19,367 nt of DNA from Methanobacteriota archaeon (GTDB taxonomy: Archaea > Thermoplasmatota > Poseidoniia > Poseidoniales > Thalassarchaeaceae): positions 1-19,367 of the forward strand of contig PATD01000042.1 of assembly GCA_002713585.1 (NCBI GenBank), read 5' to 3'. Under the pieces are notes generated by a model. That model saw only the letters and a list, made by a program, of their open reading frames with translations. It was not told where the DNA came from and did not search any database. Shown here piece after piece: positions 2,004 to 19,262 of this stretch. Both the position numbers and the translations under genes were made by a program. How positions within the stretch are numbered: the first letter of the stretch is position 1; every line of letters begins with the position of its first letter.

Positions 2004-2021
2004 TTTTAGGCTCACCTAAAA
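2004..2021. promoter_or_regulatory. Candidate operator 1: perfect palindrome TTTTAGG-ctca-CCTAAAA
   Basis: 7-bp arms with a 4-bp spacer in the 110-bp divergent intergenic region between the genes at 302..1969(-) and 2080..3567(+). It shares the TTTAGG-N4-CCTAAA core with the site at 2059-2074. Confidence 0.35.
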
Positions 2022-2058: not shown

Positions 2059-2074
2059 TTTAGGCGAGCCTAAA
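2059..2074. promoter_or_regulatory. Candidate operator 2: perfect palindrome TTTAGGC-ga-GCCTAAA
   Basis: The 16-bp palindrome ends 5 bp upstream of the ATG at 2080. It lies about 25 bp downstream of the AT-rich TATA-like stretch aaatatcatatat (2028-2040). Its centre is 54 bp from the centre of site 1. Confidence 0.35.
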
Positions 2075-2079
2075 CTCGT

Positions 2080-3567
2080 ATGGAATGGATACAAATGAAA
2101 ACGCGAACAATGCAAGGAATGACACTAGTTTTACTGATGTTGATGGCAGCTTTTGCCGGATGCGTTGCAGATGACACATCTGATGACACATCTACTAGCA
2201 CAGCAGACACCAGCACAAGTACTGCTGATAGCACCAACAGCACCGCCGATAGCAGTTCATCTGATAGCAGCTCATCTGATAGCAGTTCATCAGATAGCAG
2301 TTCATCTGATAGCAGCTCATCTGATGGTAGTTCTTCAGATGGCAGCAGCAGCGATTCCTCTTCCAGTGGAGGTGCAGCAGTTAGCACAATGGATTCCGAA
2401 GATGGAGGCTACACATACGCTTCCAATGTGGATAACCATCGATCTCTGATGGCTGACATGTGCGACATCAAGACCTACGCCAGCAATGCCCAGTGGACTG
2501 CAGCAAAGGACGTCTACCAGAATGGTAAGAATGCACCTAAGAGCGACGGTTCCTACCGCACCCTTGCAGGATTCGCTGCAGCAGCTGGAAAGCAACACAA
2601 CTACGACATGTTCTACGGAATGAACGGTTCAGTCGATGCTCACATCATGGCCGCTCTAGACGGAACTGGCGACTTTGCGAACACTTCCGACACAGTCCGA
2701 TACCAGGGTGTTGCTAAGCTAACTGCTAACATGGCAATGGTCGCATACACCATCCACGAGTTGAACACTGCAGTCAACAAGGCTGAGGCTGGCAACTGGG
2801 AAAACAATGACTCTGGAGCACCTCACAACTGGGACGAAGGATGGGCATTCTTCCATGGTCCTGATGAGAACGTTGGCTGTGGGCCAGTATCGACTCTCAA
2901 CAAGAGAGCCAACGACTTCGGCACCAAGACCAATACATCATTTGGAGATGTAGCCAACACCACTCATGCTATCACAGACGCAATGGTCGGTGGACTTGCT
3001 GCTCTACAGACAAACGACAGCACTGGATACAATGATGCTGGCGGCGTCGTCGTCAAGAACGTGATCATTGCATACTCTCAGGCAGTCCTGAAGTACACAT
3101 ACAAGATGGACTCCACCACTGATGCTGCTAAGTATCAGGCTGAAGGATACGCATTCTGGAAGACCATCGAAGCTTACGCAGCTGACTACACCGATGCATG
3201 CTACAACAACAAGACCCACACAATGGCTTACGTTGGAGATGCAGCCGATGCTACTGTTTGTGATAACTTTGCATGGTATACCGACTTCTCTATGGGTGGC
3301 GGACCTGCATTCACTGGATGTTACAACGTTGTAAGTCACACTGTGGCTACTGGCGTGAATGAATCCCAGTGTAACGATGGGTTCGGCGCAGTTGGTTCTA
3401 CTGGCATGCCGATGTACTACAACAACTACGGCGCTAGCCAGATGAATGAAGTTCTAGACCTAACGGACGCTACCCAGCTTGGCACATCGTATGATGTGTC
3501 TGCCTGGCTCGCTCCAGTATGGGCTCATTACGGCATCACATCTGATGACATCGGGTCTTACTCCTGA
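2080..3567 (+). CDS. Secreted lipoprotein of unknown function: S/T/D-rich linker plus a ~390-aa globular domain (possibly iron-related)
   Basis: Signal peptide with lipobox (LMAAFAGC), then a ~75-aa low-complexity T/S/D linker including (SSSSD)n. The globular part carries paired motifs NWDEGWAFFHG and AEGYAFWKTIEAY and six further Cys. The ATG at 2095 (MKTRT...) is a plausible alternative start. Confidence 0.75.
   Translation: MEWIQMKTRTMQGMTLVLLMLMAAFAGCVADDTSDDTSTSTADTSTSTADSTNSTADSSSSDSSSSDSSSSDSSSSDSSSSDGSSSDGSSSDSSSSGGAAVSTMDSEDGGYTYASNVDNHRSLMADMCDIKTYASNAQWTAAKDVYQNGKNAPKSDGSYRTLAGFAAAAGKQHNYDMFYGMNGSVDAHIMAALDGTGDFANTSDTVRYQGVAKLTANMAMVAYTIHELNTAVNKAEAGNWENNDSGAPHNWDEGWAFFHGPDENVGCGPVSTLNKRANDFGTKTNTSFGDVANTTHAITDAMVGGLAALQTNDSTGYNDAGGVVVKNVIIAYSQAVLKYTYKMDSTTDAAKYQAEGYAFWKTIEAYAADYTDACYNNKTHTMAYVGDAADATVCDNFAWYTDFSMGGGPAFTGCYNVVSHTVATGVNESQCNDGFGAVGSTGMPMYYNNYGASQMNEVLDLTDATQLGTSYDVSAWLAPVWAHYGITSDDIGSYS
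2248..2367 (+). repeat. In-frame 15-bp tandem repeat encoding (DSSSS)n
   Basis: gatagcagYtcatcW occurs 5 times nearly perfectly (2248-2322), followed by three degenerate units (gatggtagttcttca, gatggcagcagcagc, gattcctcttccagt). Confidence 0.9.
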
Positions 3568-3706
3568 TGATATGGAGTGAATTACAATCGCGAACACGCA
3601 CCGTACGCGGTCTACCGGCTGATCCGTTTGAGAGGCGAACCAACTCTCAATGTCCTCGGACGGGGACGGTGGACCGCGCACTGGTCTGGTGATTAGAGAA
3701 TAAGGA

Positions 3707-5812
3707 ATGATTGAGATGATAGCGAATAAAAAAAGAGCAATTTCCCTGGCAATTCTGATGGTTGTTGGGATGTCTGCCGGATGCCTTTCTGATGACACCG
3801 TTTCGTCTACAGATGACGGTTTGGCTGAGAATCCCGTGGATAGTTTGGTTATTGCATTTGAAGTGAAGGATACTTACACTAACATCGATGACAACCCCCA
3901 ACGTTTAGCTGACTATCTCGCTGAGAAGCTGGATGCTCCCGTAACTTTGTACCCGGTTGATTCCGAAGGTGCAGCCATGGAGGCTTTGCGCTTTGGTAAT
4001 GCGGATATCGGTTTCATGGATGGTGGGGCCGCATGGATTGGCTGGCAACAGTATGATCTTGGTGTGCTTGCTTCTGAGACCAAACCTGATGGGCGAACAT
4101 GGTATGGGGCTCGTGCAGTTGTAATGGCTGATTCAGATATTGCCGCTGCTGATCTTGATAATGATTCAGTCACCGATCCATTTGCTCTTTTCCAGGGTAA
4201 GACCCCGTGTCATACTGGTTGGTTGAAGTCAGCTGGAATGTTGCTTCCCATGGGCTACCTCATTGGAAATGGATATGCAAATGTAATCGGAGATCCGAAT
4301 GATGTTGATTCAATGAGAAATACAATTTTCAATTATTTCAATGAAAACGCTTCAATCCCTGAGTCAGGAGAATTGTACTATAGTTACAAGGGTGCACTTC
4401 GTTGTCTTTCCGAAGATCGTGGCGATATTGCATTTGTTGCAGATTCAACACTTGACTACTATTGTGTTGATCGTAAAGAGAGCAACTCTTGGTGCCTAGA
4501 TGAGGATTTGTATCACGAATTGCCTTTGTTTGGAAAGGCTCCTGGACACCCAGTCATGTATAATCCAGCATTGATGAGCACTGAGAAGGCAGATGCCATA
4601 CGTGATGCATTGGTTGAGATGGATGATGATGATGTAGGCGATGATATCCTAGACGACATCGTGAATTCACCACGTGGTATTGTGGATGTAGGTGGCACTG
4701 AAGCTCACCTTGGCACATATTCGGCAGCGATTCGGAATATTCCCGGAATCCAGGCATACTTCGGCGGTAACTATGGCGTTGTATCAAACTCAACACCTAC
4801 TAAGGATACAATCAGAATTGCATACGAGGTCAAGGATACCTACACAAATGTGGATTCTAACCCTCAGATTCTAGCAGATCGCCTTTCTGATAGATTGGGC
4901 GTTAATGTGGAACTTTACGATGTTAGTTCTGAAGGTGCTATTCTCGAGGCTCTTAGATTCGGTAATGCAGATATTGGATTCATGGATGGAGGAGCTGCAT
5001 GGGTAGGTTGGAAGGAATACGGTCTAGCTGCGTTAGCTGCTGATTTGAAGCCTGATGGCCGTTCATATTACGGTGCACAAGCGTATGTTCGAGCAGATAG
5101 TGACATAGCAGCAGCATATCTTGATGATGATCCATCTACTGATCCTTACGAACTATTCAGAGGAAAGACACCTTGCCACACTGGCTGGCTGAAATCAGCA
5201 GGTATGCTTCTACCGATGGGCTACTTGATTGGTAACGGATATGCCGAAGTTGTCGGCGACCCAGATGACGTCTCTTCTCTCAGAGATACCATCTATAATT
5301 TCTTCAACGAAAATGCATCTATTCCCGAATCTGGTGATTTGTATTACAGTTACGAAGGTGCGCTACGTTGCATGTCATCAGGTCGAGGAGATATCGCATT
5401 TATCGCTGACTCAACTTACGAATTCTATTGTGTTGATCGAAACCGAAATTGGTGCCTAGAGGATGGCGAATATTTGGCCCTCCCTATCTTTGGTAAGGCG
5501 CCGAGCCACCCTGTAATGTATAATCCTGAATTGCTTGATATGGCCACAAGGGCAGCACTGCTTGAAGAGCTGATGGCGATGAATTATGAATCTTGGATTG
5601 AGGAGGGAGATGGTTATTGTTACAACACTAATTCGCGTTCTATTGACGCTAATCTTACTCAGAGTTCCTGTGGTAGTTCGATACTTTCTGAGGTGTTGAA
5701 TACTGGAGGTTTGATTGCAGTGAATACTCAAGAGCACATGGGGAGTTATTCTGATTCAATTTCTTATGTTCCAGGTATTTCTTCATATTTCGAAGATAGA
5801 TACGATATCTGA
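3707..5812 (+). CDS. Bilobal transferrin-family / PhnD-superfamily substrate-binding lipoprotein (putative Fe3+ binding)
   Basis: Signal peptide plus lipobox (GMSAGC). Two tandem ~320-aa copies each carry transferrin-lobe motifs: NADIGFMDGG, (W/Y)YGA(R/Q)A, GKTPCHTGWLKSAG, YYSY(K/E)GALRC, GDIAF(V/I)ADST and AP(G/S)HPVMYNP. The TAAGGA just upstream suggests the ATG at 3716 may be the true start. Confidence 0.85.
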   Translation: MIEMIANKKRAISLAILMVVGMSAGCLSDDTVSSTDDGLAENPVDSLVIAFEVKDTYTNIDDNPQRLADYLAEKLDAPVTLYPVDSEGAAMEALRFGNADIGFMDGGAAWIGWQQYDLGVLASETKPDGRTWYGARAVVMADSDIAAADLDNDSVTDPFALFQGKTPCHTGWLKSAGMLLPMGYLIGNGYANVIGDPNDVDSMRNTIFNYFNENASIPESGELYYSYKGALRCLSEDRGDIAFVADSTLDYYCVDRKESNSWCLDEDLYHELPLFGKAPGHPVMYNPALMSTEKADAIRDALVEMDDDDVGDDILDDIVNSPRGIVDVGGTEAHLGTYSAAIRNIPGIQAYFGGNYGVVSNSTPTKDTIRIAYEVKDTYTNVDSNPQILADRLSDRLGVNVELYDVSSEGAILEALRFGNADIGFMDGGAAWVGWKEYGLAALAADLKPDGRSYYGAQAYVRADSDIAAAYLDDDPSTDPYELFRGKTPCHTGWLKSAGMLLPMGYLIGNGYAEVVGDPDDVSSLRDTIYNFFNENASIPESGDLYYSYEGALRCMSSGRGDIAFIADSTYEFYCVDRNRNWCLEDGEYLALPIFGKAPSHPVMYNPELLDMATRAALLEELMAMNYESWIEEGDGYCYNTNSRSIDANLTQSSCGSSILSEVLNTGGLIAVNTQEHMGSYSDSISYVPGISSYFEDRYDI
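3839..5797 (+). repeat. Internal tandem duplication of a whole binding-protein lobe (aa ~45-352 and ~367-697)
   Basis: The two halves align colinearly and are roughly two-thirds identical by eye. Long identical runs include KTPCHTGWLKSAGMLLPMGYLIGNGYA and FNENASIPESG. Confidence 0.85.
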
Positions 5813-5838: not shown

Positions 5839-8199
5839 ATGGTCAGCACTAGAGTTGTAGTCTTCTGTATCTTCGTCCTGGTATGTTCATCCATTAACGT
5901 CCATTCTGAATCAAATACATCGGAGAGTTACACTGTATCTGGCTACGTCCTGCTCCCTGATGGATCTCCTGCGAATGCAACTTCAGTCAAACTTGTTCCA
6001 ATGGATTCCGTTTGGACGGATCAAACAGGTTTCTATTCCATTTCCGGTGTATCTAATGGTGAGCACATAATTCGTGCTTATTTCATGAATGACGGGCACA
6101 CAGTCGCTTATCGTTCGGTAGTTGTAGACGATGATGTTGAATTAAATTGGACCGTAGGTAAGAATTGGGTCATTCCAAGATTGAGTGATAATTTAACAGT
6201 CAATGACTACAACATCACATCAGTCTCGATAAATGAGAACGGTGATATTACTGATTTAGGTGAGAGTGTTGCGTACCTGGGTCCATATGCTATTGGAGAT
6301 TATTACACATTGATAGGCACATTTGATGATGCTGAGGGAACAACTCAGCAGTTCCATTTCCAAGTATCTGAAGGTTCTACCACGTATCCTCGTCCGAATG
6401 AATTCATTTTCCAATACGGCATGAATAACCTGTATGGTTTTCTTACAGATTCAACAGGTGCACCGATGAATGAGGTGCTGGTTAGTATCGAGAATCAGAC
6501 AGTATCCACAAATACTGATGGATTCTATCTTCTTCGTAATCTTGTGATTGGAGATACATACAATGTAAGTTTCAAGCAAGGTAATGTTGAGGTGTTCCAA
6601 ACGGTGAGCCAACAAATCTATTCCGGACCTGGATGGTTAAATGTGTCATCAATAGTGGATGTTGAATTACCCGAATCACCGTATTTCCACCTCTCACTAG
6701 ATACTTCTTCCAATGAATCGTATGAAATTAGGTGGGATGGAGGGAACTTTACAGAATATTTCTCTGTGTATGAAGGTGAAATTTCTGATGATAACACCCC
6801 CATTTACACAGGTACGCAAAGATCGATTGACTGGGTTCCCAGCGAATCTGGAACATTTGTGTTCAACATTATTGCAGTGAATTCGAATGGATCCACAGAA
6901 TCTCCTCAATCCTTCGTTCTAATTGTACTTCCTGATTCTCAATCAGACGATTTGTGGTCAGAAGGTATGAGTTGGGATTATGCCTTGACACATACACCTT
7001 TGAGCTCTTACGGAGTTCACAACAGAACAGTTACTGCGATATCAACTGAAACAGTTCAGGATGCATTTGGCAATACCAGAGAATCTTACTTGGTGAGGGT
7101 TACAGATGGCATTGATGAGGAAGGCGAACAGAGATATCGTTGGGTTGACAAGGATAACTTGCTGAATATCAAGACATATTGGGCAGACGCCCCTAGTTCA
7201 TCGTCCTACTATCAAGAAGGCACACTAGGTTGGGAATTTGTGGATTCCGAAGGTGCAGAGGCATCTTTACTATCTGGGCCAGAGCCCACTGAACTTCATT
7301 TCAATCGAACCAATATCATTGGTGTTCCAGGTCATCCAAATGGTTACGATGATACCATGAATAATGTGTCTATATCCTATGACGTAGAGGTATCAACACC
7401 TGCTGGTTCGTTCATGACCACTTACATCTCGATAACAGATGCGTCTGATGGAATTAGGTCATGGGAATTGTGGTACAACCATACTGTCAGGAATTGGGTG
7501 AAAATCATCGACAGGCTCCCTGGCTCACATTCCGACTCAGTCGAATATGTGTTGACTGCATTCGAGGTGCCTTTGTCTCCCCAATTCTTAGTCGAGGACT
7601 CATCTATTGATACGAAAAATTTCACAATCCGTTGGTCTGATTTCCAAGGGGCTGAATCGTACGAATTGAGCCATAATGGGGTTGTGACTTATGCGGGTTC
7701 TTCCAATTTTTATGAGGCGATGGATCTGGAGGATGGCGAGCATCATTTTGAGATTGTCGCGGTTATGAATTCCGACTATTCAGTTATTGGAAATAGTCTG
7801 AACCTTTCAGTTCTATTCGTTCAACAGCCACCGATTCTTGAAATCGAGAATCAGAATCTAACTATTGGTTCATCCAAGTTAGTTACTTGGTCAGAAATTC
7901 ATGATGCTCAAGCCTATGTTCTAGGAGTAGTGCTTCCGGATGGATCGTATTATGAGGCTTACAATGGGAGTGCAAATAGCTTTGATTTGGAGATTGAAAA
8001 TATTGGGCAACACAGGATTCGAGTTTTGGTGTTAATGGAAGATGGCCCAAATTCTGGATGGTCTGAATCTGTATTCATACTAGCTGAGGATAGTAATTTA
8101 GTAGCAGAGGGTACCAGCGCTTCTTTTTCTTCAGTGGTTTTTGGATTCGTTCTTTTACTAATTCTGCTGATAGCAATTTCAAAACCAAGGAGGGCTTGA
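5839..8199 (+). CDS. Large secreted, C-terminally membrane-anchored surface glycoprotein (CarboxypepD_reg-like and fn3/Ig-like beta-sandwich repeats)
   Basis: N-terminal signal peptide. Two segments look like carboxypeptidase-regulatory folds (YTVSGYVLLPDGSPANATSVKL...GFYSISGV and LYGFLTDSTGAPMNEVLVSI...DGFYLLRNL). At least three segments of the type (Y/F)xIRW...YxV/L look fn3-like. I count 19 N-X-S/T sequons. The C-terminus has a hydrophobic helix plus a KPRRA tail. Confidence 0.7.
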   Translation: MVSTRVVVFCIFVLVCSSINVHSESNTSESYTVSGYVLLPDGSPANATSVKLVPMDSVWTDQTGFYSISGVSNGEHIIRAYFMNDGHTVAYRSVVVDDDVELNWTVGKNWVIPRLSDNLTVNDYNITSVSINENGDITDLGESVAYLGPYAIGDYYTLIGTFDDAEGTTQQFHFQVSEGSTTYPRPNEFIFQYGMNNLYGFLTDSTGAPMNEVLVSIENQTVSTNTDGFYLLRNLVIGDTYNVSFKQGNVEVFQTVSQQIYSGPGWLNVSSIVDVELPESPYFHLSLDTSSNESYEIRWDGGNFTEYFSVYEGEISDDNTPIYTGTQRSIDWVPSESGTFVFNIIAVNSNGSTESPQSFVLIVLPDSQSDDLWSEGMSWDYALTHTPLSSYGVHNRTVTAISTETVQDAFGNTRESYLVRVTDGIDEEGEQRYRWVDKDNLLNIKTYWADAPSSSSYYQEGTLGWEFVDSEGAEASLLSGPEPTELHFNRTNIIGVPGHPNGYDDTMNNVSISYDVEVSTPAGSFMTTYISITDASDGIRSWELWYNHTVRNWVKIIDRLPGSHSDSVEYVLTAFEVPLSPQFLVEDSSIDTKNFTIRWSDFQGAESYELSHNGVVTYAGSSNFYEAMDLEDGEHHFEIVAVMNSDYSVIGNSLNLSVLFVQQPPILEIENQNLTIGSSKLVTWSEIHDAQAYVLGVVLPDGSYYEAYNGSANSFDLEIENIGQHRIRVLVLMEDGPNSGWSESVFILAEDSNLVAEGTSASFSSVVFGFVLLLILLIAISKPRRA

Positions 8200-8204
8200 T
8201 TTAG

Positions 8205-9305
8205 ATGGATAAGGGAAAACTTGCCTTAATCCAAGTATCCATTCTCTTGATTGGTTTCTTTGGATGGTACATTCTATCTGATCAAGACATACAAGAATCA
8301 GAGCAGCCTTACTCGATTACTGTAACTGATTCAAATGGAGTGGTACACCAGTTCGAAGAATCTCCTTCGCGTGTTGCTATTTCCAATACCTATATTGCGA
8401 GTGCAATGAGAATGTTGAATGTCTCTTCGTCCGTAGTTGTAGGAGTTTCTGGTGACTTCGATGATTCGATATTATGGCCTGAATATAATGAGACAAAGAT
8501 AGTTCAGAATTCGGCCCATTCTGAGATTGATTTTGAGGCATTGTACGATGCTCGACCCGATGTATACATCGTTTTCGCTACCAATGGTATGGTCGATACT
8601 AGTGCCATACGAAACAAACTTGATGAGGTAGGTATCAGGGTTATTGCATTGGATTTTTACAAATATGATTACCTCCGAACCGAGTTTCAGGTAATTGCTG
8701 AATTGTTCAATAAGCAAGAAGAAATGAATGATCTTTTAGCAGATTTTGATTCGATAGAATTACTAATTGAAGGAAGGATTTCTTCTCTTGAATCCGACAA
8801 CCGTCCAACTGTTGTTATGGAACATCATGCTTCCCTTACTCGTGATCCAGTAGTTTTGACCGGAACATCTCAATGGACTGATATGATAGAAAAAGCAGGA
8901 GGGATAAATTTCTTTGCTGAACTTCCGGGACATACCACTCATGTTGACATGGAGGCAATCCTTGATGCGGATCCTGATGTAATCCTATTTGACGGAATAA
9001 CATTTGATATTGGATTCAATCGATTTGATACAGACGGAATTTCTTGTGATCAACATATAGAATTCGTGTCCGAACGTCCTGGTTTTGATGGAGTTCAAGC
9101 TGTAATAGATGATAGAATGCTAATTTTTTCTGGTGAATTTGCAGGTCCTATGATGATTCATGGTCTTCCAACACTTGCCAAGCACTTACATCCTGAAAAA
9201 TTCCTTGACATTGATACAGATTCGTATCTAGACGAATATTTCTCCGAATATCATGGTGTTGAGAGAATAGGAAAGTTCGTTTGCCAATCAGGTAATGGAG
9301 ATTAA
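8205..9305 (+). CDS. ABC substrate-binding protein, FecB/BtuF/HmuT class (iron-siderophore / heme / cobalamin type), N-terminal TM anchor
   Basis: N-terminal hydrophobic anchor, then the family-typical ITVTDSNGVVHQFEESPSRVAISNTYIASAMRMLN opening and the PDVYIVF and DPDVILF motifs. An AGGAGG sequence lies upstream. The gene overlaps the permease gene by 11 nt. Confidence 0.8.
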   Translation: MDKGKLALIQVSILLIGFFGWYILSDQDIQESEQPYSITVTDSNGVVHQFEESPSRVAISNTYIASAMRMLNVSSSVVVGVSGDFDDSILWPEYNETKIVQNSAHSEIDFEALYDARPDVYIVFATNGMVDTSAIRNKLDEVGIRVIALDFYKYDYLRTEFQVIAELFNKQEEMNDLLADFDSIELLIEGRISSLESDNRPTVVMEHHASLTRDPVVLTGTSQWTDMIEKAGGINFFAELPGHTTHVDMEAILDADPDVILFDGITFDIGFNRFDTDGISCDQHIEFVSERPGFDGVQAVIDDRMLIFSGEFAGPMMIHGLPTLAKHLHPEKFLDIDTDSYLDEYFSEYHGVERIGKFVCQSGNGD

Positions 9306-10404
9306 TCCAATGGAGTCGATCACTGAACGTCATATCCAGAATGGATATGTACAGATTCTCATAATGGCAGTAGTTGCAAGTTGTACCATAATACTGGGTC
9401 TATTTGCAATGGGTATCGGTTCTTCTGAACAGTTAGATCAACTATCGACACTGAAAATAATTCTAGGTATTTCAGAGCCTGACTCATTACAGTCCGATAT
9501 AATCTGGCATCTCAGATTTCCTAGAATACTAATGGCAATTACATGTGGAGTTGCTCTTGCCACTGCTGGAGCACTTATGCAGGGATGTTTGGGAAACCCC
9601 CTGGTTTCCCCACTTACTCTTGGAGTTGCATCCGGTGCATCACTAGGTGCCGCCCTTGCAATTGTATTGGGTTTGCAAGTAATCGATTTCCTTGAACCTT
9701 TTTTGTCAAACCTCCCCGGTCCGCTTTCAAATTTGGATTTTGAATCGATAGGAATCGTGGCCAATGCATTTTTCTTTTCGTTAATTGTGGTTGTAATTAT
9801 CATACAATTGGGGAAAATGCGTTCTATATCTCCTGAATCATATATTCTTGTAGGCATTGCAATCACATTCATCTGTGGAGCAATAGTATCAACAATTCAG
9901 TATTTTGCATCTGATGCTGAGATTTCTCAACTGACGCATTGGTCCTTTGGTTCACTGTCAAGGCCAGATCTTGGTCAGACAATGTGGATTGCTGCACTGA
10001 TTATTTGTCTAATGCCCTATGCAATCATATTTGCTTGGGATTTGAATTCGATGGCTTTAGGGGGTGACGATTTTGCAATTTCAACAGGTGTAGACCCACA
10101 AGCTACAAGGGTTACAATATTGGTATTGTCAGCTGGCATGACATCTATTGTCATAGCATTCACTGGTTTGATTGGTTTTGTCGGTCTTGCTGCACCTCAC
10201 ATGACTCGTCTAATTATAGGAAATGATTATCGTAAATTGTTACCATGTTCCGCGGTTTCTGGGGCATTTTTGGTATTAATAGCAGACACTATTGGTCGTA
10301 CTATTGTTGCCCCAATCATCATTCCAGTCGGAGTGATGTTATCCGTAATTGGGGGGCCATTTTTCATGTATCTCCTCCTTGCAAATAAGGGGGTGTCACA
10401 TTGA
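9295..10404 (+). CDS. ABC permease, FecCD/BtuC/HmuU family
   Basis: Polytopic protein with the hallmark RFPRILMAITCGVALATAGALMQGCLGNPLVSPLTLGVASGASLG. Its stop overlaps the next gene's TTG start. Confidence 0.9.
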   Translation: MEINPMESITERHIQNGYVQILIMAVVASCTIILGLFAMGIGSSEQLDQLSTLKIILGISEPDSLQSDIIWHLRFPRILMAITCGVALATAGALMQGCLGNPLVSPLTLGVASGASLGAALAIVLGLQVIDFLEPFLSNLPGPLSNLDFESIGIVANAFFFSLIVVVIIIQLGKMRSISPESYILVGIAITFICGAIVSTIQYFASDAEISQLTHWSFGSLSRPDLGQTMWIAALIICLMPYAIIFAWDLNSMALGGDDFAISTGVDPQATRVTILVLSAGMTSIVIAFTGLIGFVGLAAPHMTRLIIGNDYRKLLPCSAVSGAFLVLIADTIGRTIVAPIIIPVGVMLSVIGGPFFMYLLLANKGVSH

Positions 10405-11207
10405 ATTCGATACTCGAGGCCAAGAATCTGAGTTTCAGTTGGGGCAATAAACAAGTTTTTTCTGGCGTTGGTTTTGATATTCAGCCAAACCAGATAGTTG
10501 CTATTGTCGGGGTTAATGGGGCAGGTAAATCTACACTATTGAAATGCCTAAATCGTATACTTGTTCCTTCTACAGGTAGTATATCCATCAATTCTGAAGA
10601 AGTTAGTACAATGCCTATTCTTGAATTAGCGAAACAAGTATCCTATGTTCCACAGTCAGTATCTACAAGTTTCCCATTAGATGTATATGACGTTGTTATG
10701 CTTGGAAGGAGGCCATACATTTCTTGGAGAATTAGTGATGAAGACCGGGAGTTTGTTTCTAACACTATTTCTTTATTCGATTTAGAAGATTTTGCTTTCA
10801 GAAGATTTGATCAGTTATCTGGAGGAGAGAGGCAACGTGTGATTATTGCTAAGGCGGTTGCCCAAAACCCTTCATTATTTCTTTTCGATGAACCTACCAG
10901 TGATCTTGATCTTAAGAATCAGATTATTGTGATGAAATCAATTCGTAAACTCGTGGACAATAAGGACAACAATTGTTCGGCTTTGATTGCGATTCACGAT
11001 CTAAATACTGCTGCAAGGTTTGCAGATTCTATTTTGATGTTACATGAGGGTGAAATGAAGGCGTTTGGCTCCCCAGAGATAGTTTTCACTGAAGAAAATA
11101 TTTCAGAAGTTTTTGGTGTGACCAGTGACTTGATATCATCGAATGATGGTGCACCAATGAGGATACATGTTCTCGATATCCCCAATGACGAGTCGGCGGG
11201 AAATTGA
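10401..11207 (+). CDS. ABC ATPase, FepC/HmuV/BtuD type
   Basis: Walker A GVNGAGKST, signature LSGGERQRV and Walker B LFLFDEPTSDLD. The TTG start overlaps the permease stop (tTGA). Confidence 0.9.
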   Translation: MNSILEAKNLSFSWGNKQVFSGVGFDIQPNQIVAIVGVNGAGKSTLLKCLNRILVPSTGSISINSEEVSTMPILELAKQVSYVPQSVSTSFPLDVYDVVMLGRRPYISWRISDEDREFVSNTISLFDLEDFAFRRFDQLSGGERQRVIIAKAVAQNPSLFLFDEPTSDLDLKNQIIVMKSIRKLVDNKDNNCSALIAIHDLNTAARFADSILMLHEGEMKAFGSPEIVFTEENISEVFGVTSDLISSNDGAPMRIHVLDIPNDESAGN

Positions 11208-11226
11208 AACTTAAAGTGGTGAAAAA

Positions 11227-11679
11227 ATGACTGAAAAAGAACTAATGATTATTTTTGGAACAGAGACTGGAAATGCAGAAATGGTTGCTGAAGATGCTCA
11301 ACGAATGGCGCCAGATTATGGTTTGAATGCTACTATCCATGACATGGATGATTTGAGTGTGGATGATCTTTCCGGAGCCACACGTCTCCTAGTAACTTGC
11401 AGCACCTGGGGCGATGGTGATCAGCCAATGAATGCTGAAGATTTGTATGAATCTATGGAGGATGCAGATGGTGGAACTATGGATGGCATAAATTTTGCAG
11501 TCCTAGCATTAGGGGATACCGCCTACGAACTGTTCTGTGAATCAGGAAAGCAATGGGATGCAGTTCTTGAGGAAAAGGGCGGGAACCGAGTTGCGGAAAG
11601 AATTGACCTTGACACAGATTTTGAAGATTTCACAGAAGAGTGGCTTCAGTCTGCATTGGAAGCATTCCAGAATGTGTGA
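11227..11679 (+). CDS. Flavodoxin (short FMN-binding, MioC/CysJ-FMN-domain-like)
   Basis: IFGTETGNAEMVAED, LVTCSTWGDGDQP and FAVLALGDTAYELFCESGK are classic flavodoxin FMN-loop motifs. A GGTGA sequence lies upstream. Confidence 0.85.
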   Translation: MTEKELMIIFGTETGNAEMVAEDAQRMAPDYGLNATIHDMDDLSVDDLSGATRLLVTCSTWGDGDQPMNAEDLYESMEDADGGTMDGINFAVLALGDTAYELFCESGKQWDAVLEEKGGNRVAERIDLDTDFEDFTEEWLQSALEAFQNV

Positions 11680-11705
11680 TAGTCCTCATTTCTAAGGTGA
11701 ATTGA

Positions 11706-12527
11706 ATGACTGAAAAATCAGCTGACATACCTCGTCATGCTCCACCTAAGGGCGCGAGTACAAGACAACAGGAGTTGTTGTATGATCCAAATGTGGCTAC
11801 CTCATCACACGCTGAACAAGCTAGGACTCTTATTGAGAGGGTAGGTACTGCAACATTATGCACGATTTCACACAGCCATGAGGGTCATCCTTACGGTTCA
11901 TTTGTTACATTCGCAATGGATGGCGAGCATCCTATCTTTTTGATAAGTCGACTAGCAGAACACACAAAGAATCTGCTTCAGAATTCTAAATCCTCACTTT
12001 TGGTTGCAGAAGGAGGGGATGGCAATCCACTTGCTTTGGGCCGAGTGACATTAGTTGGAATTTGTGAACAAGTTTCGGACGATGAACGGCCCCGCTTGAA
12101 GGAAATCTTTGTTCAACGACACCCTGATTCAAAATTCTATGCTGATTTCGGCGATTTCCTATTTTTCCGTCTTGAGGTAGATTCTGTGCGATATATCGGA
12201 GGTTTTGGTCGTATGTCGTGGTTCGGAGATGTGGATTGGGCTGAGGCTGAACCAGATCCGTTGTATTCATCTGCTGATGGGATAATCGAACACATGAATG
12301 ATGATCATCAGGATGCTATGCTATTGATTTGCCATACTATGTCGAAGGCAACTGATGCTACAGAACCTGTGATGACGGGAGTGGACCGGTATGGGTTTGA
12401 GATGTCGGTTATGACAGGGGATGGAAGGCGTCCGATTCGAGTTGCGTTTGAGAATACATGCGATAATCCAGATGATGTTAGAAGTGCCATGGTCAATTTG
12501 GTAAAAATCGCTCGTTCAAAGGTATGA
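11706..12527 (+). CDS. HugZ/HutZ-like heme-utilisation protein (PNPOx-like split barrel + C-terminal DUF2470)
   Basis: The N-terminal ~170 aa match the pyridoxamine-5'-phosphate-oxidase-like pattern (GTATLCTIS...GHPYGSFVTFAMD...PIFLISRLAEHTKNL...SSLLV...LGRVTLVG...DFLFFRLEVDSVRYIGGFGRMSWF). The C-terminal IIEHMNDDHQDAMLLICH is the DUF2470 signature. An AAGGTGA sequence lies upstream. Confidence 0.75.
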   Translation: MTEKSADIPRHAPPKGASTRQQELLYDPNVATSSHAEQARTLIERVGTATLCTISHSHEGHPYGSFVTFAMDGEHPIFLISRLAEHTKNLLQNSKSSLLVAEGGDGNPLALGRVTLVGICEQVSDDERPRLKEIFVQRHPDSKFYADFGDFLFFRLEVDSVRYIGGFGRMSWFGDVDWAEAEPDPLYSSADGIIEHMNDDHQDAMLLICHTMSKATDATEPVMTGVDRYGFEMSVMTGDGRRPIRVAFENTCDNPDDVRSAMVNLVKIARSKV

Positions 12528-12625: not shown

Positions 12626-13345
12626 ATGTCTAAATCAGTGGTACATATCGAGAATGCTTCGATAGGTTTCTCACCAGATGAACCCCTCATCAAAAATCTC
12701 AATCTGGAAATCAATCAGGGCGAGATTGTCGCCATTGCTGGCCCATCAGGTATTGGGAAGACAACACTTCTCCGTACGATTGCAGGTCTCGTTCCAATGC
12801 TTGAAGGAGAAATGACTCTCTTTGGTCGAAATAGCAAAGCATCTCGTGGTGAACTTGGATACATACCACAAAGGCTTGGCCTCATCCGGCACGCATCTGT
12901 CTATCACAATGTGTTAATGGGCGCCTTGACAAGTACAGCTGGCGTATGGTTCCCGTTTTCATTTGAGGCCAGACGTCGTACATTAGAATCGATTGATGCA
13001 ATGGGTATTAGTGAGAAAAAAAGAACTCCAATTCGACTTTTATCTGGAGGTCAACAGAGACGCGTTGCAACCGCAAGAACACTAGCCCAACAACCGTCAA
13101 TCATTCTTGCTGATGAATTCCTTGGAGAATTAGATGAAGAAACAATGGAAAGCGTCCTATCAAAGGTCACCAATTATGTTCGTACAAATAATGCGACGTT
13201 AATCGTAGTGGAACACGATATATCGCGTGCTAAGAGGATGGCGGACCACCTTCTTATTCTTGATGATGGCCAATTAAATCCATTTGTCGATCAACCAATT
13301 TCTATGCAGATTTCCATGCGTTTAGATAAGGAGTTGAACGTATGA
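12626..13345 (+). CDS. phnC: ABC ATPase, PhnC-like
   Basis: Walker A GPSGIGKTT, signature LSGGQQRRVATAR and Walker B IILADEF. A PhnC-style insert follows the Q-loop (LGYIPQRLGLIRHASVYHNVLMGAL...). The gene is translationally coupled (ATGA) to a PhnE-type permease. Confidence 0.75.
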   Translation: MSKSVVHIENASIGFSPDEPLIKNLNLEINQGEIVAIAGPSGIGKTTLLRTIAGLVPMLEGEMTLFGRNSKASRGELGYIPQRLGLIRHASVYHNVLMGALTSTAGVWFPFSFEARRRTLESIDAMGISEKKRTPIRLLSGGQQRRVATARTLAQQPSIILADEFLGELDEETMESVLSKVTNYVRTNNATLIVVEHDISRAKRMADHLLILDDGQLNPFVDQPISMQISMRLDKELNV

Positions 13346-14277
13346 GCGACTCTGGTTCTAAAGTTGATTTTACTACCCTCGCCTCTAGATTGTGGTACTC
13401 ATCTCGTTGGTTTCTTCTGTTTATCGGCTTGTTAGTTGTAGCTTTTCGAGTAACTAACAGCATGGATCCCAACTGGGGGCGATTAGCTAATACGAATAAC
13501 AATCTGGTTACCTTCTTCCAAGAATCTCTGTGGCCTCCTGACTGGAGTGTTATTGAAGCACAAGCATACCCTCCTTGTTTGGCGGCTCCAGGCCTATCTT
13601 TCACCTGCTCAACAGCATGGTTGGGTATGATTGAGACTCTCAAAATTGCATTCGTTGCAACTATTCTAGGTATGACGATATCGTTCCCATTGTCATTGCT
13701 CGCTTCCCGTAATCTTAGCCCTAATTGGGTTAGTTACCCTGCTCGTTTCTTACTCGCAGGGTCTCGAAGTTTGCCAAGTATCATTTGGGCTCTTTTCTTC
13801 GTTATCGTGATAGGTTTCGGGCCATTATCCGGAATATTAGCTATGACTGTCTATACGATTGGGTATCTCGGTAAACTACAGTACGAAACCATCGAGGGTA
13901 TCGATCGTGGACCCTTGGAAGCATCCAAGGCGATGGGCCATGGATGGTTTGAGCGTTCTTTTGGTGTAATTCTCCCTGAATCCGCAAATGGCCTAATCTC
14001 GCAGGTGATTTTCATGTTTGAATATAATTTCAGACATGGGACTGTGATTGGAATTGTGGGTGCAGGTGGGATCGGATATTACATCAATCTCTATCTCAAA
14101 TTCCTACAATATGACAAGGTAATCGCCTACCTGATCATTATCTTCGTTGTAGTATTAATTCTAGATGTGATATCCATTTATGCCCGGTCTTTGTTTACCG
14201 AGGATGGCGATGTACGACGTCAATCTTGGTGGTCAATTTTACTCCCTCCCTCTATGTTGAGGAATGAAGATGACTGA
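13342..14277 (+). CDS. phnE: ABC permease, PhnE-like
   Basis: Matches the PhnE pattern: IETLKIAFVATILGMTISFPLSLLASRNL, RSLPSIIWALFFVIVIGFGPLSGILAMTVYTIGYLGKL, EASKAMG, FEYNFRHGTVIGIVGAGGIGY. Confidence 0.8.
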   Translation: MSDSGSKVDFTTLASRLWYSSRWFLLFIGLLVVAFRVTNSMDPNWGRLANTNNNLVTFFQESLWPPDWSVIEAQAYPPCLAAPGLSFTCSTAWLGMIETLKIAFVATILGMTISFPLSLLASRNLSPNWVSYPARFLLAGSRSLPSIIWALFFVIVIGFGPLSGILAMTVYTIGYLGKLQYETIEGIDRGPLEASKAMGHGWFERSFGVILPESANGLISQVIFMFEYNFRHGTVIGIVGAGGIGYYINLYLKFLQYDKVIAYLIIIFVVVLILDVISIYARSLFTEDGDVRRQSWWSILLPPSMLRNEDD

Positions 14278-14912: not shown

Positions 14913-15914
14913 TTAATTTCCGGTTTCGATCATACGGTCGATTGCTTCGTCAACTTCGATTCCTCCATCGAGAAGATCACACAATGCATGGAGGAATGGA
15001 GTTGAAATTCCGAGTACTGCGGCTCTTGAGAGGAACATTCGGGCTGCTCGGACCCCTTCCGCAACCATATGCATCTTCCCAAGGGCTTCTTCAAGGCTGA
15101 GTCCTGAACCAATCATCTCACCTAGGGTGCGATTGCGGCTACTTGGGCTTGTGGAGGTGACATAGAGGTCGCCGATACCTGCTGCCGAACTCGAGGTCTC
15201 AGGTTTCGCACCTAGTGCCGGAAGAAGGCGCTGCCCTTCTTGAAAACCAGCGGTTACTAGTGCCGCTTTGAGGTTGTCACCTGATGAATTTCCTAGTCCG
15301 TCTACTATTCCACAAGCAAGTGCTATCGGATTTTTGAACGCGCCCCAAAGTTCGGCACCGAGTGGGTCATCTGCGGGATGTAACTTGAGAGTCTTTGTTG
15401 TAAGGCGGTCCGCCATTCTACGGGCCATTGTTCTATCATGAGCGGCGATTAGAGCGATGGTACTTACTCCGCGGGCTACCTCTGGAGCAATTGTCGGTCC
15501 AGTCATCACAAAGATGGGGTTGGCACACTTCGCTGCTGCGAGTTTTTTCTCCATCACTGCACTGATGAAAGGCTCCTCCTCTGTTTCCGGAGCTAGCCCC
15601 TTCGCTAGATCGAGTATGGCGTGAGAGGGTCTTAGATGCGGGATTACATCGTCGAGGACACTCAGAACCACTCCTGATGGGAGCGAGAGTACGAGGATTT
15701 CTGATGCATCACAAATTGTGGCTAAATCCATCGTGGCCTCTACATTTTCAAGGACTTCCCCAGGAAGGTATTTTTCGTTAATCCCAGTCGATGTAATCGA
15801 GGCATATACCTCCTCTTCTATGGTCCAACCCATTACTGAATGTCCAGTGCCACCCCACACCTTAGCGAGTGCAGTGCCCCAGTTCCCCAGACCAACGATG
15901 CCTATGCGCGCCAT
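14913..15914 (-). CDS. gpsA: NAD(P)H-dependent sn-glycerol-3-phosphate dehydrogenase
   Basis: N-terminal Rossmann motif IGIVGLGNWGTALA. Also LAKGL, GPTIAPEVA, NPIALACGIVDGLG, GIGDLYVTSTSPSSRNRTLG and VAEGV, all typical GpsA blocks. Confidence 0.9.
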   Translation of the reverse strand: MARIGIVGLGNWGTALAKVWGGTGHSVMGWTIEEEVYASITSTGINEKYLPGEVLENVEATMDLATICDASEILVLSLPSGVVLSVLDDVIPHLRPSHAILDLAKGLAPETEEEPFISAVMEKKLAAAKCANPIFVMTGPTIAPEVARGVSTIALIAAHDRTMARRMADRLTTKTLKLHPADDPLGAELWGAFKNPIALACGIVDGLGNSSGDNLKAALVTAGFQEGQRLLPALGAKPETSSSAAGIGDLYVTSTSPSSRNRTLGEMIGSGLSLEEALGKMHMVAEGVRAARMFLSRAAVLGISTPFLHALCDLLDGGIEVDEAIDRMIETGN

Positions 15915-16015
15915 CGAGCAGGTCCGGTTTCAGGGGGTCTTGACCGTTGGGGATGGAGCCGGGGTCAAAGGACCAATTCCGGCAGGACTGTAAGGGCACG
16001 GTGAGGAACCGTATC

Positions 16016-17206: not shown

Positions 17207-17259
17207 GGAAATTTTTGATGCGTTGCATTGAAGCATATGAGCCCCGCCTCACGGGTTAA

Positions 17260-17344
17260 GCAGGGGTACCCGAGTGGTCAAAGGGGTTGGGTTTAGGTCC
17301 CAATGCGTAGTGCTTCGCAGGTTCGAATCCTGTCCCCTGCACCA
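17260..17344 (+). tRNA. tRNA-Leu, anticodon UAG, class II (long variable arm), CCA encoded
   Basis: Acceptor GCAGGGG/CCCCTGC, discriminator A plus CCA. Anticodon stem TTGGG/CCCAA with loop TTTAGGT (anticodon TAG, G37). T-arm GGTTCGAATCC. D-region CCCGAGTGGTCAAAGGG resembles archaeal/eukaryal Leu tRNAs. Confidence 0.9.
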
Positions 17345-17493
17345 CCATGACTACCCAATTTCGTCTAACGAATAGGCGTGTAGTAAAATTGCGCATATGC
17401 GGTGAATTATTCCCTCTGCATCGATAAGTAAAATCAATGAGGACTCTTTGAGAATCCGAATGATTATGCCTATCCTGATTTTGTTCGAAGGTA

Positions 17494-19161: not shown

Positions 19162-19262
19162 ACTCAGTAATCCTTGTTGATTCGAGGGTGAAATCGAAGG
19201 TGCAGGCCATGTGGCTGGAGAACCTCCAATTTGGTTATCACTAATGATGGATTTCGAGTATC

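What the first reader, a model, noticed from the sequence alone, without database searches (positions are those of the whole stretch)
3707..5812. Prokaryotic two-lobed transferrin homologue with the full Fe3+/carbonate ligand set in both lobes
Each ~320-aa half aligns motif by motif with a human serotransferrin lobe. NADIGFMDGG matches EADAVTLDAG (Asp63). WYGARAVV / YYGAQAYV matches FYYAVAVV (Tyr95). GKTPCHTGWLKSAG matches GKKSCHTGLGRSAG (Thr120, with Arg124 replaced by Lys, plus the SAG helix N-terminus). YYSYKGALRCL...GDIAFVADST matches YFGYSGAFKCL...GDVAFVKHST (Tyr188 and the Cys118-Cys194 pair). APGHPVM matches VPSHTVV (His249), and the lobes even end alike (AIRNIPG versus AIRNLREG). Candidate ligands are D105/Y133/Y227/H281 and D427/Y455/Y549/H601. 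Bacterial FbpA, the so-called bacterial transferrin, is single-lobed and uses a different His/Glu/Tyr/Tyr-phosphate site, so this protein is not of that type. Transferrins are generally treated as a eukaryotic family derived from PhnD-type anion-binding proteins. This version carries a lipobox for membrane tethering and sits in one gene array with PhnC/PhnE-type transporter parts. The two lobes are far more alike than vertebrate N and C lobes, which suggests an independent and more recent duplication.
Basis: partly seen in the sequence, partly recalled or inferred. Interest (0 to 1): 0.9.

Follow-up and report, generated by a model that had tools for sequence, protein, structure and literature searches.

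The report
Archaeal two-lobed transferrin-like iron binder
A marine archaeon (Marine Group II) encodes a membrane-anchored, two-lobed protein that keeps every iron- and carbonate-binding residue of animal transferrin in both lobes but is wired as the capture subunit of an ABC importer, so it looks like the prokaryotic form of transferrin and a route by which abundant ocean archaea take up iron.

Summary
ORF 3707-5812 (+) encodes a 701-aa lipoprotein made of two lobes that are 58% identical. It passes both Pfam Transferrin (96.7 bits) and Phosphonate-bd (137.9 bits). Against solved structures, the 60 best hits shown are all transferrin-family proteins (best 1.6e-24). Lactoferrin Asp60/Tyr92/Thr117/Arg121/Tyr192/His253 align with D105/Y133/T170/K174/Y227/H281, and the same set recurs in the C-lobe.

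These residues are invariant in 22 homologues and complete in both lobes in 60 of 80 species-level genomes, all Poseidoniales (Marine Group II/III). In 63 of 67 loci the gene is followed directly by PhnC/PhnE-type ABC genes. In this window a 6.8-kb block of iron-related genes separates them.

A palindrome, TTAGG-N4-CCTAA, marks the promoters of these genes and is 33-fold enriched there. A more distant single-lobed operon ends with a DtxR-type repressor gene.

My best reading is a Fe3+/carbonate substrate-binding protein feeding an ABC importer. Metal binding is inferred, not shown. The lobe duplication happened within MGII, independently of animals. In a rough tree the archaeal clade groups with eukaryotic transferrins. 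The most similar eukaryotic sequences come from unicellular holozoans. I found no paper describing this family.

The parts
2006..2019 (.). Palindrome TTAGGCTCACCTAA, candidate metal-repressor operator 1, 74 bp upstream of the ATG of the FEA1-like gene
   Evidence: The window has only two matches, both in this 110-bp intergenic region. The same motif is 33-fold enriched in the 200 bp upstream of transferrin-like genes in 80 related loci, present in 57 of 74.
2060..2073 (.). Palindrome TTAGGCGAGCCTAA, candidate operator 2, 20 bp upstream of the ATG at 2080
   Evidence: Pairs spaced 33-56 bp apart are the usual arrangement in related loci.
2080..3567 (+). FEA1-related lipoprotein (Fea1/ISIP2a phytotransferrin-type domain), probably first gene of the transcription unit
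   Evidence: Pfam Fea1 88.2 bits. NCBIfam NF038033 339.4 bits against a cut-off of 250. Lipobox FAGC. The same gene order occurs in L010, L011 and L024.
3707..5812 (+). Two-lobed transferrin-like lipoprotein, the finding itself; proposed Fe3+/carbonate substrate-binding protein
3707..3784 (+). Signal peptide and lipobox (aa 1-26, ...GMSAG|C), followed by an acidic linker up to aa 44
   Evidence: Read directly from the sequence. G25 and C26 are invariant.
3839..4792 (+). N-lobe (aa 45-362). Candidate ligands D105 (4019-4021), Y133 (4103-4105), Y227 (4385-4387), H281 (4547-4549). Anion site T170 (4214-4216), K174 (4226-4228), S175-A176-G177
   Evidence: Alignment to lactoferrin with numbering. 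Invariance. AlphaFold model with pLDDT 94.3. Foldseek top hits are transferrins. Pfam per lobe.
4805..5809 (+). C-lobe (aa 367-701). D427 (4985-4987), Y455 (5069-5071), Y549 (5351-5353), H601 (5507-5509), T492 (5180-5182), K496 (5192-5194). Carries an extra Cys-bounded insertion at about aa 626-660
5839..12527 (+). Lineage-specific 6.8-kb block between the binding-protein gene and its ABC partners. It holds a 786-aa surface protein (CarboxypepD_reg, C-terminal TM; 5839-8199), a Peripla_BP_2/FecCD/ATPase importer (8205-11207), flavodoxin (11227-11679) and a HugZ-like protein (11706-12527)
   Evidence: Pfam and NCBIfam. The block is absent from 63 of 67 related loci and present in L010, L011 and L024.
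12626..13345 (+). PhnC-like ABC ATPase, proposed partner of the transferrin-like binding protein
   Evidence: Best NCBIfam hit TIGR02315, 155 bits, below its cut-off. It is 47-58% identical to the ATPase directly downstream of transferrin-like genes in L001, L002 and L005.
13342..14277 (+). PhnE-type permease, proposed partner
   Evidence: TIGR01097 236.7 bits against a cut-off of 216.7. It is 66-69% identical to the permeases in L001, L002 and L005.

Best explanation
The gene encodes the extracellular, lipid-anchored substrate-binding protein of a PhnC/PhnE-type ABC importer in a Marine Group II (Poseidoniales) archaeon. Each of its two lobes is a transferrin-type site.

Shown here:
- It belongs to the transferrin/PhnD superfamily and passes the Pfam Transferrin threshold.
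- It carries the complete transferrin ligand set in both lobes, conserved across the family.
- Elsewhere it sits in a conserved operon with an ABC ATPase and permease.
- Its promoters share a palindrome.

Inferred:
- Each lobe closes on one Fe3+. The ligands are Asp, two tyrosinates and His. A synergistic carbonate is held by Thr170/492, Lys174/496 and the N-terminus of the S-A-G helix.
- The loaded lobe docks on the PhnE-type permease, and ATP-driven opening releases the iron for import. This resembles FbpABC-type transport rather than receptor-mediated endocytosis.
- Having two lobes, or three in some relatives, doubles the capture sites held at the membrane.
- Transcription in this genome starts upstream of the FEA1-like gene and is controlled by a metal-responsive repressor that binds the TTAGG-N4-CCTAA pair.
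For: Family placement:
- Pfam Transferrin scores 96.7 bits (cut-off 20.3) and Phosphonate-bd 137.9 bits. Each lobe alone passes both thresholds.
- The 60 PDB sequence hits shown (of 94 matched) are all transferrin-family proteins, best E 1.6e-24, and the ligands align residue for residue.
- D/Y/T/K/Y/H are invariant in 22 homologues of 61-98% identity.
- The set is complete in both lobes in 60 of 80 species-level genomes. Another 7 have Asp replaced by Glu in the C-lobe.
- The same pattern, plus the Cys pair equivalent to hTf C118-C194, is shared with ichthyosporean and animal transferrins. E. coli PhnD has G,Y,F,D,H,D at these positions.
- NCBIfam PhnD equivalogs fall far below cut-off, 51.9 against 261.1 and 87.2 against 112.05.
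- An MGII lobe HMM misses E. coli PhnD at E <= 1e-3 but hits animal transferrins.
- The N-lobe AlphaFold model has pLDDT 94.3. Its best Foldseek hits are melanotransferrin, apo-lactoferrin and the apo-hTf N-lobe.

Transporter link:
- ABC_tran and BPD_transp_1 genes lie directly downstream in L001-L003 and L005-L008, and in 63 of 67 species loci.
- The window's PhnC/PhnE-like proteins are 47-69% identical to these neighbours.

Iron link:
- The window neighbours are a FEA1-like lipoprotein, a FecCD-type importer, flavodoxin and a HugZ-like protein.
- A single-lobed Thermoplasmatota operon ends with a DtxR-type Fe_dep_repress gene.
- 94 of the 133 TTAGG-N4-CCTAA matches lie within 200 bp upstream of transferrin-like genes. 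Where a FEA1-like gene comes first, the pair sits in front of that gene instead.
Against: - There are no binding or expression data.
- Per lobe, Pfam Phosphonate-bd outscores Transferrin, 79.3 against 55.8 and 65.7 against 46.9.
- The permease passes NCBIfam's PhnE equivalog cut-off.
- In L002 and L003 the operon lies next to PHO4/PhoU phosphate genes.
- Foldseek scores apo-PtxB and AioX almost as well as transferrins (E 1e-12, TMq 0.65-0.67). The model is in an open form, and coordinates could not be read, so convergence of the four side chains was not shown.
- In this window the binding-protein gene is 6.8 kb from the PhnC/PhnE genes.
- The regulator that binds the palindrome is unidentified, and DtxR-family repressors can respond to Mn as well as Fe (from general knowledge).
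Confidence: 0.72

Rival explanations
1. It is what the databases call it: a PhnD-type binding protein for phosphonate, phosphite or phosphate that happens to be duplicated, feeding a phosphorus ABC importer.
For: Pfam Phosphonate-bd is the top family. The permease passes the PhnE equivalog cut-off and PhnC is the best ATPase model. JGI and NCBI name relatives as phosphate/phosphonate binding proteins. PHO4 and PhoU genes flank the operon in L002 and L003. hhalign to E. coli PhnD gives 97.7% probability.
Against: PhnD equivalog scores are far below cut-off. The E. coli PhnD residues at the ligand positions differ, whereas the transferrin metal ligands are strictly conserved. No C-P lyase, phosphonatase or phosphite dehydrogenase gene was seen in the window or the neighbour loci inspected. 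The neighbours and the DtxR-type gene point to metals.
Confidence: 0.08
2. It is a transferrin-type site that is used in nature for another hard metal ion or metal-anion pair, for example Mn3+/Mn2+, Al3+, Ti4+, V or Ga-like ions, rather than iron.
For: Transferrin sites bind many hard cations, and DtxR-family regulators include Mn sensors (both from general knowledge). The regulator and metal for the palindrome are unknown. In 10 of 80 species the C-lobe has a different residue set, N/E, S, D, D, which suggests that specificity has diverged within the family.
Against: A site of two tyrosinates, Asp, His and carbonate is the classic Fe3+ site. The co-located genes (FEA1-like, FecCD-type, flavodoxin, HugZ-like) are all tied to iron economy.
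Confidence: 0.12
3. It binds Fe3+ but does not deliver it to the PhnC/PhnE-type importer. It would act as a surface iron concentrator or store, or hand iron to another system such as the FEA1-like protein or the FecCD importer next to it.
For: In this window it sits next to the FEA1-like gene and a FecCD-type system, 6.8 kb from PhnC/PhnE. It shares a Cys-bounded 'CYNxxTHxV' module with the FEA1-like lipoprotein.
Against: In 63 of 67 related loci PhnC/PhnE follow it directly and no other binding-protein gene for them is seen. The FecCD system has its own Peripla_BP_2 binding protein.
Confidence: 0.08

Closest known systems
Eukaryotic transferrins (serotransferrin, lactoferrin, ovotransferrin, melanotransferrin; Pfam PF00405)
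   Same: Two homologous type-II binding-protein lobes. The Asp/Tyr/Tyr/His ligands and the Thr + Arg/Lys + helix-N-terminus anion site lie at aligned positions. The Cys pair equivalent to hTf C118-C194 is present. These proteins give the best PDB sequence and fold hits.
   Different: Identity is only about 24%. The protein lacks the N-terminal 'WC' disulfides and most of the other cystine bridges. It is lipid-anchored rather than secreted. It is encoded with ABC transporter genes, so delivery should be by docking on a permease, not by receptor-mediated endocytosis and acid release. The lobes are 58% identical and duplicated independently.
Multi-lobed transferrin-like proteins of unicellular holozoans (Chromosphaera, Amoebidium, Creolimax, Abeoforma, Sphaeroforma)
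   Same: These are the most similar eukaryotic sequences: about 29% identity on average, 33-36% in phmmer matches. They share the ligand set and Lys at the anion site. Their lobe starts resemble the archaeal ones, without the 'WC' motif.
   Different: They are eukaryotic secreted proteins with 1 to at least 5 lobes and extra Cys-rich inserts. Pfam Transferrin outscores Phosphonate-bd in them, the reverse of the archaeal lobes.
PhnD/PtxB/HtxB/AioX family (Pfam PF12974), the binding proteins of phosphonate, phosphite and arsenite systems
   Same: Same fold and superfamily: hhalign 97.7% to E. coli PhnD, and apo-PtxB gives TMq 0.65-0.67. Same operon logic with PhnC/PhnE-type partners. The anion-binding helix N-terminus is homologous.
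   Different: Identity to E. coli PhnD is 17-18%. The equivalog models are not met. There are metal ligands where PhnD has G/F/D/D. The context is iron, not phosphorus.
FbpA/FutA/SfuA 'bacterial transferrins' with FbpBC-type ABC importers
   Same: This is the closest working analogy: a free-Fe3+ binding protein with a synergistic anion that feeds an ABC importer (general knowledge).
   Different: FbpA is single-lobed and belongs to a different binding-protein family, with a His/Glu/Tyr/Tyr + phosphate site. No SBP_bac-type Pfam family is hit here.
Phytotransferrin ISIP2a / FEA1 (Pfam PF07692)
   Same: It is described as a carbonate-dependent Fe3+ uptake protein of marine algae, said to share an origin with transferrin among phosphonate-binding proteins (PMC7676907, citing McQuaid 2018). 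A FEA1-related lipoprotein is the gene directly upstream and apparently co-regulated.
   Different: It is a different domain family. The protein studied here does not hit PF07692.

Membership tests
Transferrin (Pfam PF00405) | Scores above the family's curated profile threshold | tested here: met
   Whole protein 96.7 bits against 20.3. N-lobe 55.8 bits and C-lobe 46.9 bits on their own.
Transferrin (Pfam PF00405) | Metal ligands Asp, Tyr, Tyr, His at the canonical positions of a lobe | tested here: met
   D105/Y133/Y227/H281 align with lactoferrin D60/Y92/Y192/H253. D427/Y455/Y549/H601 fill the same positions in the C-lobe. All are invariant in 22 homologues and complete in both lobes in 60 of 80 species.
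Transferrin (Pfam PF00405) | Synergistic-anion site: Thr, a basic residue four positions later, and the N-terminus of the following helix | tested here: met
   T170/K174/S175-A176-G177 align with lactoferrin T117/R121/T-A-G. Lys or Arg occurs at this column across eukaryotic lobes.
Transferrin (Pfam PF00405) | Type-II periplasmic-binding-protein lobe fold most similar to solved transferrin lobes | tested here: inconclusive
Transferrin (Pfam PF00405) | The four ligand side chains converge on one site in three dimensions | not testable with these tools
   Model coordinates are not exposed, and the model resembles open (apo) forms.
Transferrin (Pfam PF00405) | Reversible, carbonate-dependent Fe3+ binding | not testable with these tools
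   This needs protein chemistry.
Transferrin (Pfam PF00405) | Two lobes descended from the ancestral animal N/C-lobe duplication | tested here: not met
   All MGII lobes plus a single-lobed MGII protein form one clade (97.5% bootstrap) apart from eukaryotic lobes. A single-lobed orthologue occupies the same locus. The duplication is therefore independent.
PhnD phosphonate-binding protein (NCBIfam TIGR03431 / TIGR01098; Pfam PF12974) | Scores above the curated thresholds | tested here: inconclusive
   Pfam PF12974 is met at 137.9 bits. NCBIfam is not met: PhnD equivalog 51.9 against 261.1 and the subfamily model 87.2 against 112.05.
PhnD phosphonate-binding protein (NCBIfam TIGR03431 / TIGR01098; Pfam PF12974) | Encoded with PhnC ATPase and PhnE permease | tested here: met
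   PhnE scores 236.7 against 216.7 and PhnC is the best ATPase model. These genes are directly adjacent in 63 of 67 related loci.
PhnD phosphonate-binding protein (NCBIfam TIGR03431 / TIGR01098; Pfam PF12974) | Phosphorus context (C-P lyase, phosphonatase, phosphite dehydrogenase, Pho regulation) | tested here: not met
   No such gene occurs in the window or in loci L001-L008. Only PHO4/PhoU lie beside the operon in L002 and L003. The promoter element is shared with FEA1-like genes.
FbpA-type 'bacterial transferrin' | SBP_bac-type fold family with a His/Glu/Tyr/Tyr + phosphate site | tested here: not met
   There is no Pfam hit to such families. The PDB hits shown are all eukaryotic transferrin-family proteins.

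The most novel reading that the evidence does not exclude
The transferrin Fe3+/carbonate site arose inside archaeal PhnD-type ABC-transporter binding proteins, not in eukaryotes. Tandem multiplication of lobes has also happened there independently. Eukaryotic transferrins, first seen in unicellular holozoans, would then descend from such an archaeal gene. On this reading Marine Group II archaea, and possibly Nitrosopumilus and Heimdallarchaeota with their cysteine-free D-Y-T-G-Y-H 'PhnD' proteins, use carbonate-dependent transferrin-type iron uptake that is currently mis-annotated as phosphonate transport.
Probability: 0.35. Interest if true: 0.9.

Novelty: new variant of a known kind. Interest (0 to 1): 0.8.

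Why it matters
I found no paper describing a transferrin in archaea.

This family keeps the full iron/carbonate site. At the same time it keeps the ancestral life of a periplasmic-type binding protein: a lipid anchor and an ABC importer operon. That makes it the transitional form the 'transferrin came from PhnD-like binding proteins' idea predicts, and it makes the question of transferrin's origin testable with real sequences and proteins.

There is also an ecological side. A relative was found in 400 of the 185,579 species-representative genomes scanned, and the 80 best are all Poseidoniales, among the most abundant archaea of the surface ocean. If their iron uptake depends on carbonate, as reported for diatom phytotransferrin, it would be sensitive to ocean acidification.

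Genes now counted as phosphonate transporters in marine archaeal genomes and metagenomes may in fact report iron demand.

Tried and rejected
- Full-length AlphaFold run with 22 close homologues. It gave a poor model (pLDDT 63.8) and I did not use it. A single lobe with 36 diverse lobes gave pLDDT 94.3.
- First bootstrap run. It produced NaN distances and meaningless 0/100% values, so I discarded it and repeated with capped distances.
- Sister relation of this protein's own N- and C-lobes. It appears in one NJ tree but has only 41% bootstrap support, so whether there was one duplication or several, or gene conversion, is open.
- A promoter or operator of its own for the transferrin-like gene. 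No palindrome occurs in 3568-3706. That spacer is a species-specific GC-rich hairpin, absent from L011 and L024 where the gap is about 45 nt.
- Rfam scan. It found only a tRNA-Leu.
- Genome scan with the diverse lobe alignment. It failed because no stretch was conserved enough, so I used the MGII alignment instead. The distribution outside Poseidoniales is therefore under-sampled.
- Literature. Ten full-text searches found no paper linking transferrin with MGII, Poseidoniales or Thermoplasmatota. The searches combining transferrin with other archaea or with PhnD listed nothing relevant either. McQuaid et al. 2018 is not held, so I could not check whether its trees already include these sequences.
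Full report
**What is there**

ORF 3707-5812 (+) encodes 701 aa. The N-terminus has a basic n-region, a hydrophobic core and the lipobox-like SAG|C. G25 and C26 are invariant in 22 homologues. An acidic linker follows, and then two lobes (aa 45-362 and 366-701) that are 58% identical. The C-lobe carries an extra Cys-bounded insertion at about aa 626-660.

**Checking the observation**

Pfam reports two families above threshold: Phosphonate-bd (137.9 bits) and Transferrin (96.7 bits against a cut-off of 20.3). A sequence search of all solved structures matched 94 distinct chains. The 60 shown are all transferrin-family proteins, best E 1.6e-24.

The printed alignment, which carries chain numbering, places the residues as follows:
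- D105 opposite lactoferrin Asp60
- Y133 opposite Tyr92
- T170 opposite Thr117
- K174 opposite Arg121
- Y227 opposite Tyr192
- H281 opposite His253

The C-lobe repeats the set as D427, Y455, T492, K496, Y549 and H601. All twelve residues, plus S-A-G after the Lys, are invariant in 22 homologues of 61-98% identity.

Homology-based alignments put AIRNIPG opposite the animal '..LxRLP..' segment.

**Transferrin or PhnD?**

It is both, and the gradient is informative. The table gives Pfam scores in bits, Phosphonate-bd then Transferrin.

| Protein | Phosphonate-bd | Transferrin |
|---|---|---|
| E. coli PhnD | 268 | none |
| Nitrosopumilus 'PhnD' | 151 | none |
| Heimdallarchaeota protein | 95 | 36 |
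| Single-lobed Thermoplasmatota protein | 91 | 79 |
| Single-lobed MGII protein | 84 | 68 |
| This N-lobe | 79 | 56 |
| This C-lobe | 66 | 47 |
| Abeoforma (ichthyosporean) | 47 | 113 |
| Amoebidium (ichthyosporean, two lobes) | 92 | 216 |
| A vertebrate-type transferrin | 24 | 670 |

Further points:
- NCBIfam's PhnD models are far below cut-off.
- A profile of MGII lobes finds animal transferrins but not E. coli PhnD at E <= 1e-3. Profile-profile comparison still shows superfamily homology, 97.7% probability at 18% identity.
- An exhaustive phmmer search of 1.84 billion representatives with the N-lobe found only 308 proteins at E <= 1e-3. They comprise archaeal one-, two- and three-lobed lipoproteins; multi-lobed proteins of unicellular holozoans (Chromosphaera, Amoebidium, Creolimax, Abeoforma, Sphaeroforma) and a green alga; animal transferrins; and a few cysteine-free archaeal proteins.
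- In an alignment of 128 lobes, D-Y-T-K/R-Y-H and the Cys pair equivalent to hTf C118-C194 are shared by the archaeal, holozoan and animal lobes. E. coli PhnD has G,Y,F,D,H,D at these positions.

**Structure**

The full-length model was poor. The N-lobe with a diverse alignment gave pLDDT 94.3 and pTM 0.89. The Foldseek top hits are melanotransferrin, apo-lactoferrin and the apo-hTf N-lobe (TMq 0.63-0.67). Apo-PtxB and AioX are close behind. The fold therefore agrees with the assignment but does not discriminate. The model is in an open form and I could not read its coordinates, so ligand geometry remains untested.

**Who has it**

The hits come from marine metagenomes and from Poseidoniaceae and Thalassarchaeaceae MAGs. 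A scan of 185,579 species-representative genomes found 400 with a relative. The best 80 are all Poseidoniales (MGII/III), apart from two obviously mis-binned 'Rhodobacter*' MAGs. They include the 2012 MG-II genome CM001443.1, and UBA40 at 98% identity.

Ligand status in these 80:
- 60 keep the full set in both lobes.
- 7 have Asp replaced by Glu in the C-lobe.
- 10 have a degenerate C-lobe, echoing the loss of sites in some animal family members.
- 3 are truncated by contig ends.

**Context and mechanism**

In L001-L003 the gene is followed at once by an ABC ATPase and a BPD_transp_1 permease. The same holds for single-lobed orthologues in about 2-Mb Poseidoniaceae contigs, with the same downstream gpsA as in this window. 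It also holds for a more distant Thermoplasmatota single-lobed gene, whose operon ends with a DtxR-type Fe_dep_repress gene. Across the 80 species loci, PhnC- and PhnE-like genes follow directly in 63 of the 67 with enough sequence downstream.

In this window the PhnC-like gene (12626-13345) and the PhnE gene (13342-14277, above the NCBIfam cut-off) are 47-69% identical to those neighbours. They are separated from the binding-protein gene by a 6.8-kb block, which holds:
- a 786-aa surface protein
- a Peripla_BP_2/FecCD/ATPase importer
- flavodoxin
- a HugZ-like protein

Upstream lies a FEA1-related lipoprotein with a phytotransferrin-type domain. This arrangement recurs in L010, L011 and L024.

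**A shared promoter element**

TTAGG-N4-CCTAA occurs exactly twice in the window, both times in the 110 bp before the FEA1-like gene. In the 80 loci, 94 of 133 matches lie within 200 bp upstream of the transferrin-like gene. That is 33-fold enrichment, with the motif present in 57 of 74 loci, usually as two copies 33-44 bp apart. Where a FEA1-like gene precedes, the pair sits in front of that gene instead. The single-lobed loci carry variant palindromes.

The outer half-sites recall the DtxR/IdeR iron box (from memory), but the spacing differs and the regulator is unknown. The window's transferrin-like gene has no such site of its own. The spacer has no T-run (read directly from the sequence) and is only about 45 nt in L011 and L024. 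Co-transcription with the FEA1-like gene is therefore likely.

**Evolution**

I built a distance tree with 200 bootstraps. It is a rough method with a single distant outgroup. The support values were:
- 85.5% for Thermoplasmatota lobes plus eukaryotic lobes, against the cysteine-free archaeal proteins plus E. coli PhnD
- 74.5% for eukaryote monophyly
- 97.5% for a clade holding all MGII N- and C-lobes together with a single-lobed MGII protein

Lobe duplication in MGII is therefore independent of the animal one. A three-lobed relative (P0080) shows a further, very recent duplication with 100% support. The direction of any archaea-eukaryote transfer is unresolved. The ABC-operon setting and the existence of single-lobed forms argue for a prokaryotic origin of the site.

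**Verdict**

What is shown:
- family placement between PhnD and transferrin
- the complete and conserved ligand set
- operon linkage
- a shared promoter palindrome
- independent lobe duplication

What is inferred:
- Fe3+/carbonate binding
- delivery to the PhnE-type permease
- metal-responsive repression

I found no paper describing this family, although the literature I could search is incomplete.

Noticed in passing
window 2006-2019 and 2060-2073; L001 9921-9934 and 9965-9978; L002/L003 9945-9958, 4459-4472, 694-707/539-552: The palindrome TTAGG-N4-CCTAA marks promoters of transferrin-like genes, FEA1-like genes and a 147-aa membrane-protein gene in MGII genomes. It looks like the operator of an unidentified metal regulon. 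Single-lobed loci have variants: TTTTCGGGCGCCCTAAAA and TTTTCGGGGGCCCGAAAA.
   Followed up: yes
window 2080-3567 (C-terminal part) and 5615-5671 (aa 637-655 of the finding); P0080 last lobe: A Cys-bounded module 'C-Y-N-x-x-(T/S)-H-x-V...C' occurs twice in the FEA1-like lipoprotein and once as an insertion in the transferrin-like C-lobe. The three-lobed relative has 3-4 copies. It may be a shared docking or anchoring element.
   Followed up: no
window 2080-3567: A prokaryotic FEA1/ISIP2a-type (phytotransferrin-domain) lipoprotein lies directly upstream. Its N-terminal linker is a long Ser/Asp/Thr-rich repeat whose length differs from the 98%-identical relative L010.
   Followed up: partly
window 3568-3706: The GC-rich spacer between the FEA1-like and transferrin-like genes folds into a long hairpin (-50.3 kcal/mol, z -2.75). 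It is present in L010 but absent from L011 and L024, where the gap is about 45 nt. It may be a small inserted element or an mRNA processing or stability signal.
   Followed up: partly
window 5839-8199: A 786-aa protein with a signal peptide, a CarboxypepD_reg domain and a C-terminal transmembrane anchor is wedged between the transferrin-like gene and a FecCD-type importer. It recurs in L010, L011 and L024. Its role in the iron gene array is unknown.
   Followed up: no
L090 6001-7089 (Nitrosopumilus) and L091 6001-6984 (Heimdallarchaeota): Cysteine-free 'PhnD' proteins of Nitrosopumilus (including cultured species; 1615 relatives) and of a Heimdallarchaeota MAG align with D-Y-T-G-Y-H at the transferrin ligand positions. 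They sit in binding-protein/ATPase/permease operons. The Nitrosopumilus one lies next to CbtA/CbtB cobalt-transporter genes, with no phosphonate catabolism genes in view. They may be metal binders mis-annotated as phosphonate binders.
   Followed up: partly
P0121, P0122, P0124, P0128, P0130; L079, L080, L083, L086: MGII genomes also carry two-lobed paralogues (34-45% identical) in which one or both ligand sets are degenerate. Some lie in tandem with the canonical gene. P0130-type paralogues appear to lie on the same contigs as the 95%-identical relatives of this protein (inferred from matching contig lengths), but none is in this window.
   Followed up: partly
P0080 (1156 aa): This is a three-lobed version in which all three lobes keep the full ligand set. 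Lobes 1 and 2 are near-identical recent duplicates (100% bootstrap). It parallels triplicated algal transferrins.
   Followed up: partly
window 15000-19367: GC content rises from about 0.40-0.45 to 0.51-0.56 after about 15 kb. A tRNA-Leu lies at 17260-17344 (+). ORF 17494-19161 encodes a protein with collagen-like triple-helix repeats.
   Followed up: no
L013, L083, P0045: Contigs carrying this archaeal operon are deposited under 'Rhodobiaceae' and 'Rhodobacteraceae bacterium' MAG names. This is probably a binning error rather than bacterial ownership.
   Followed up: no
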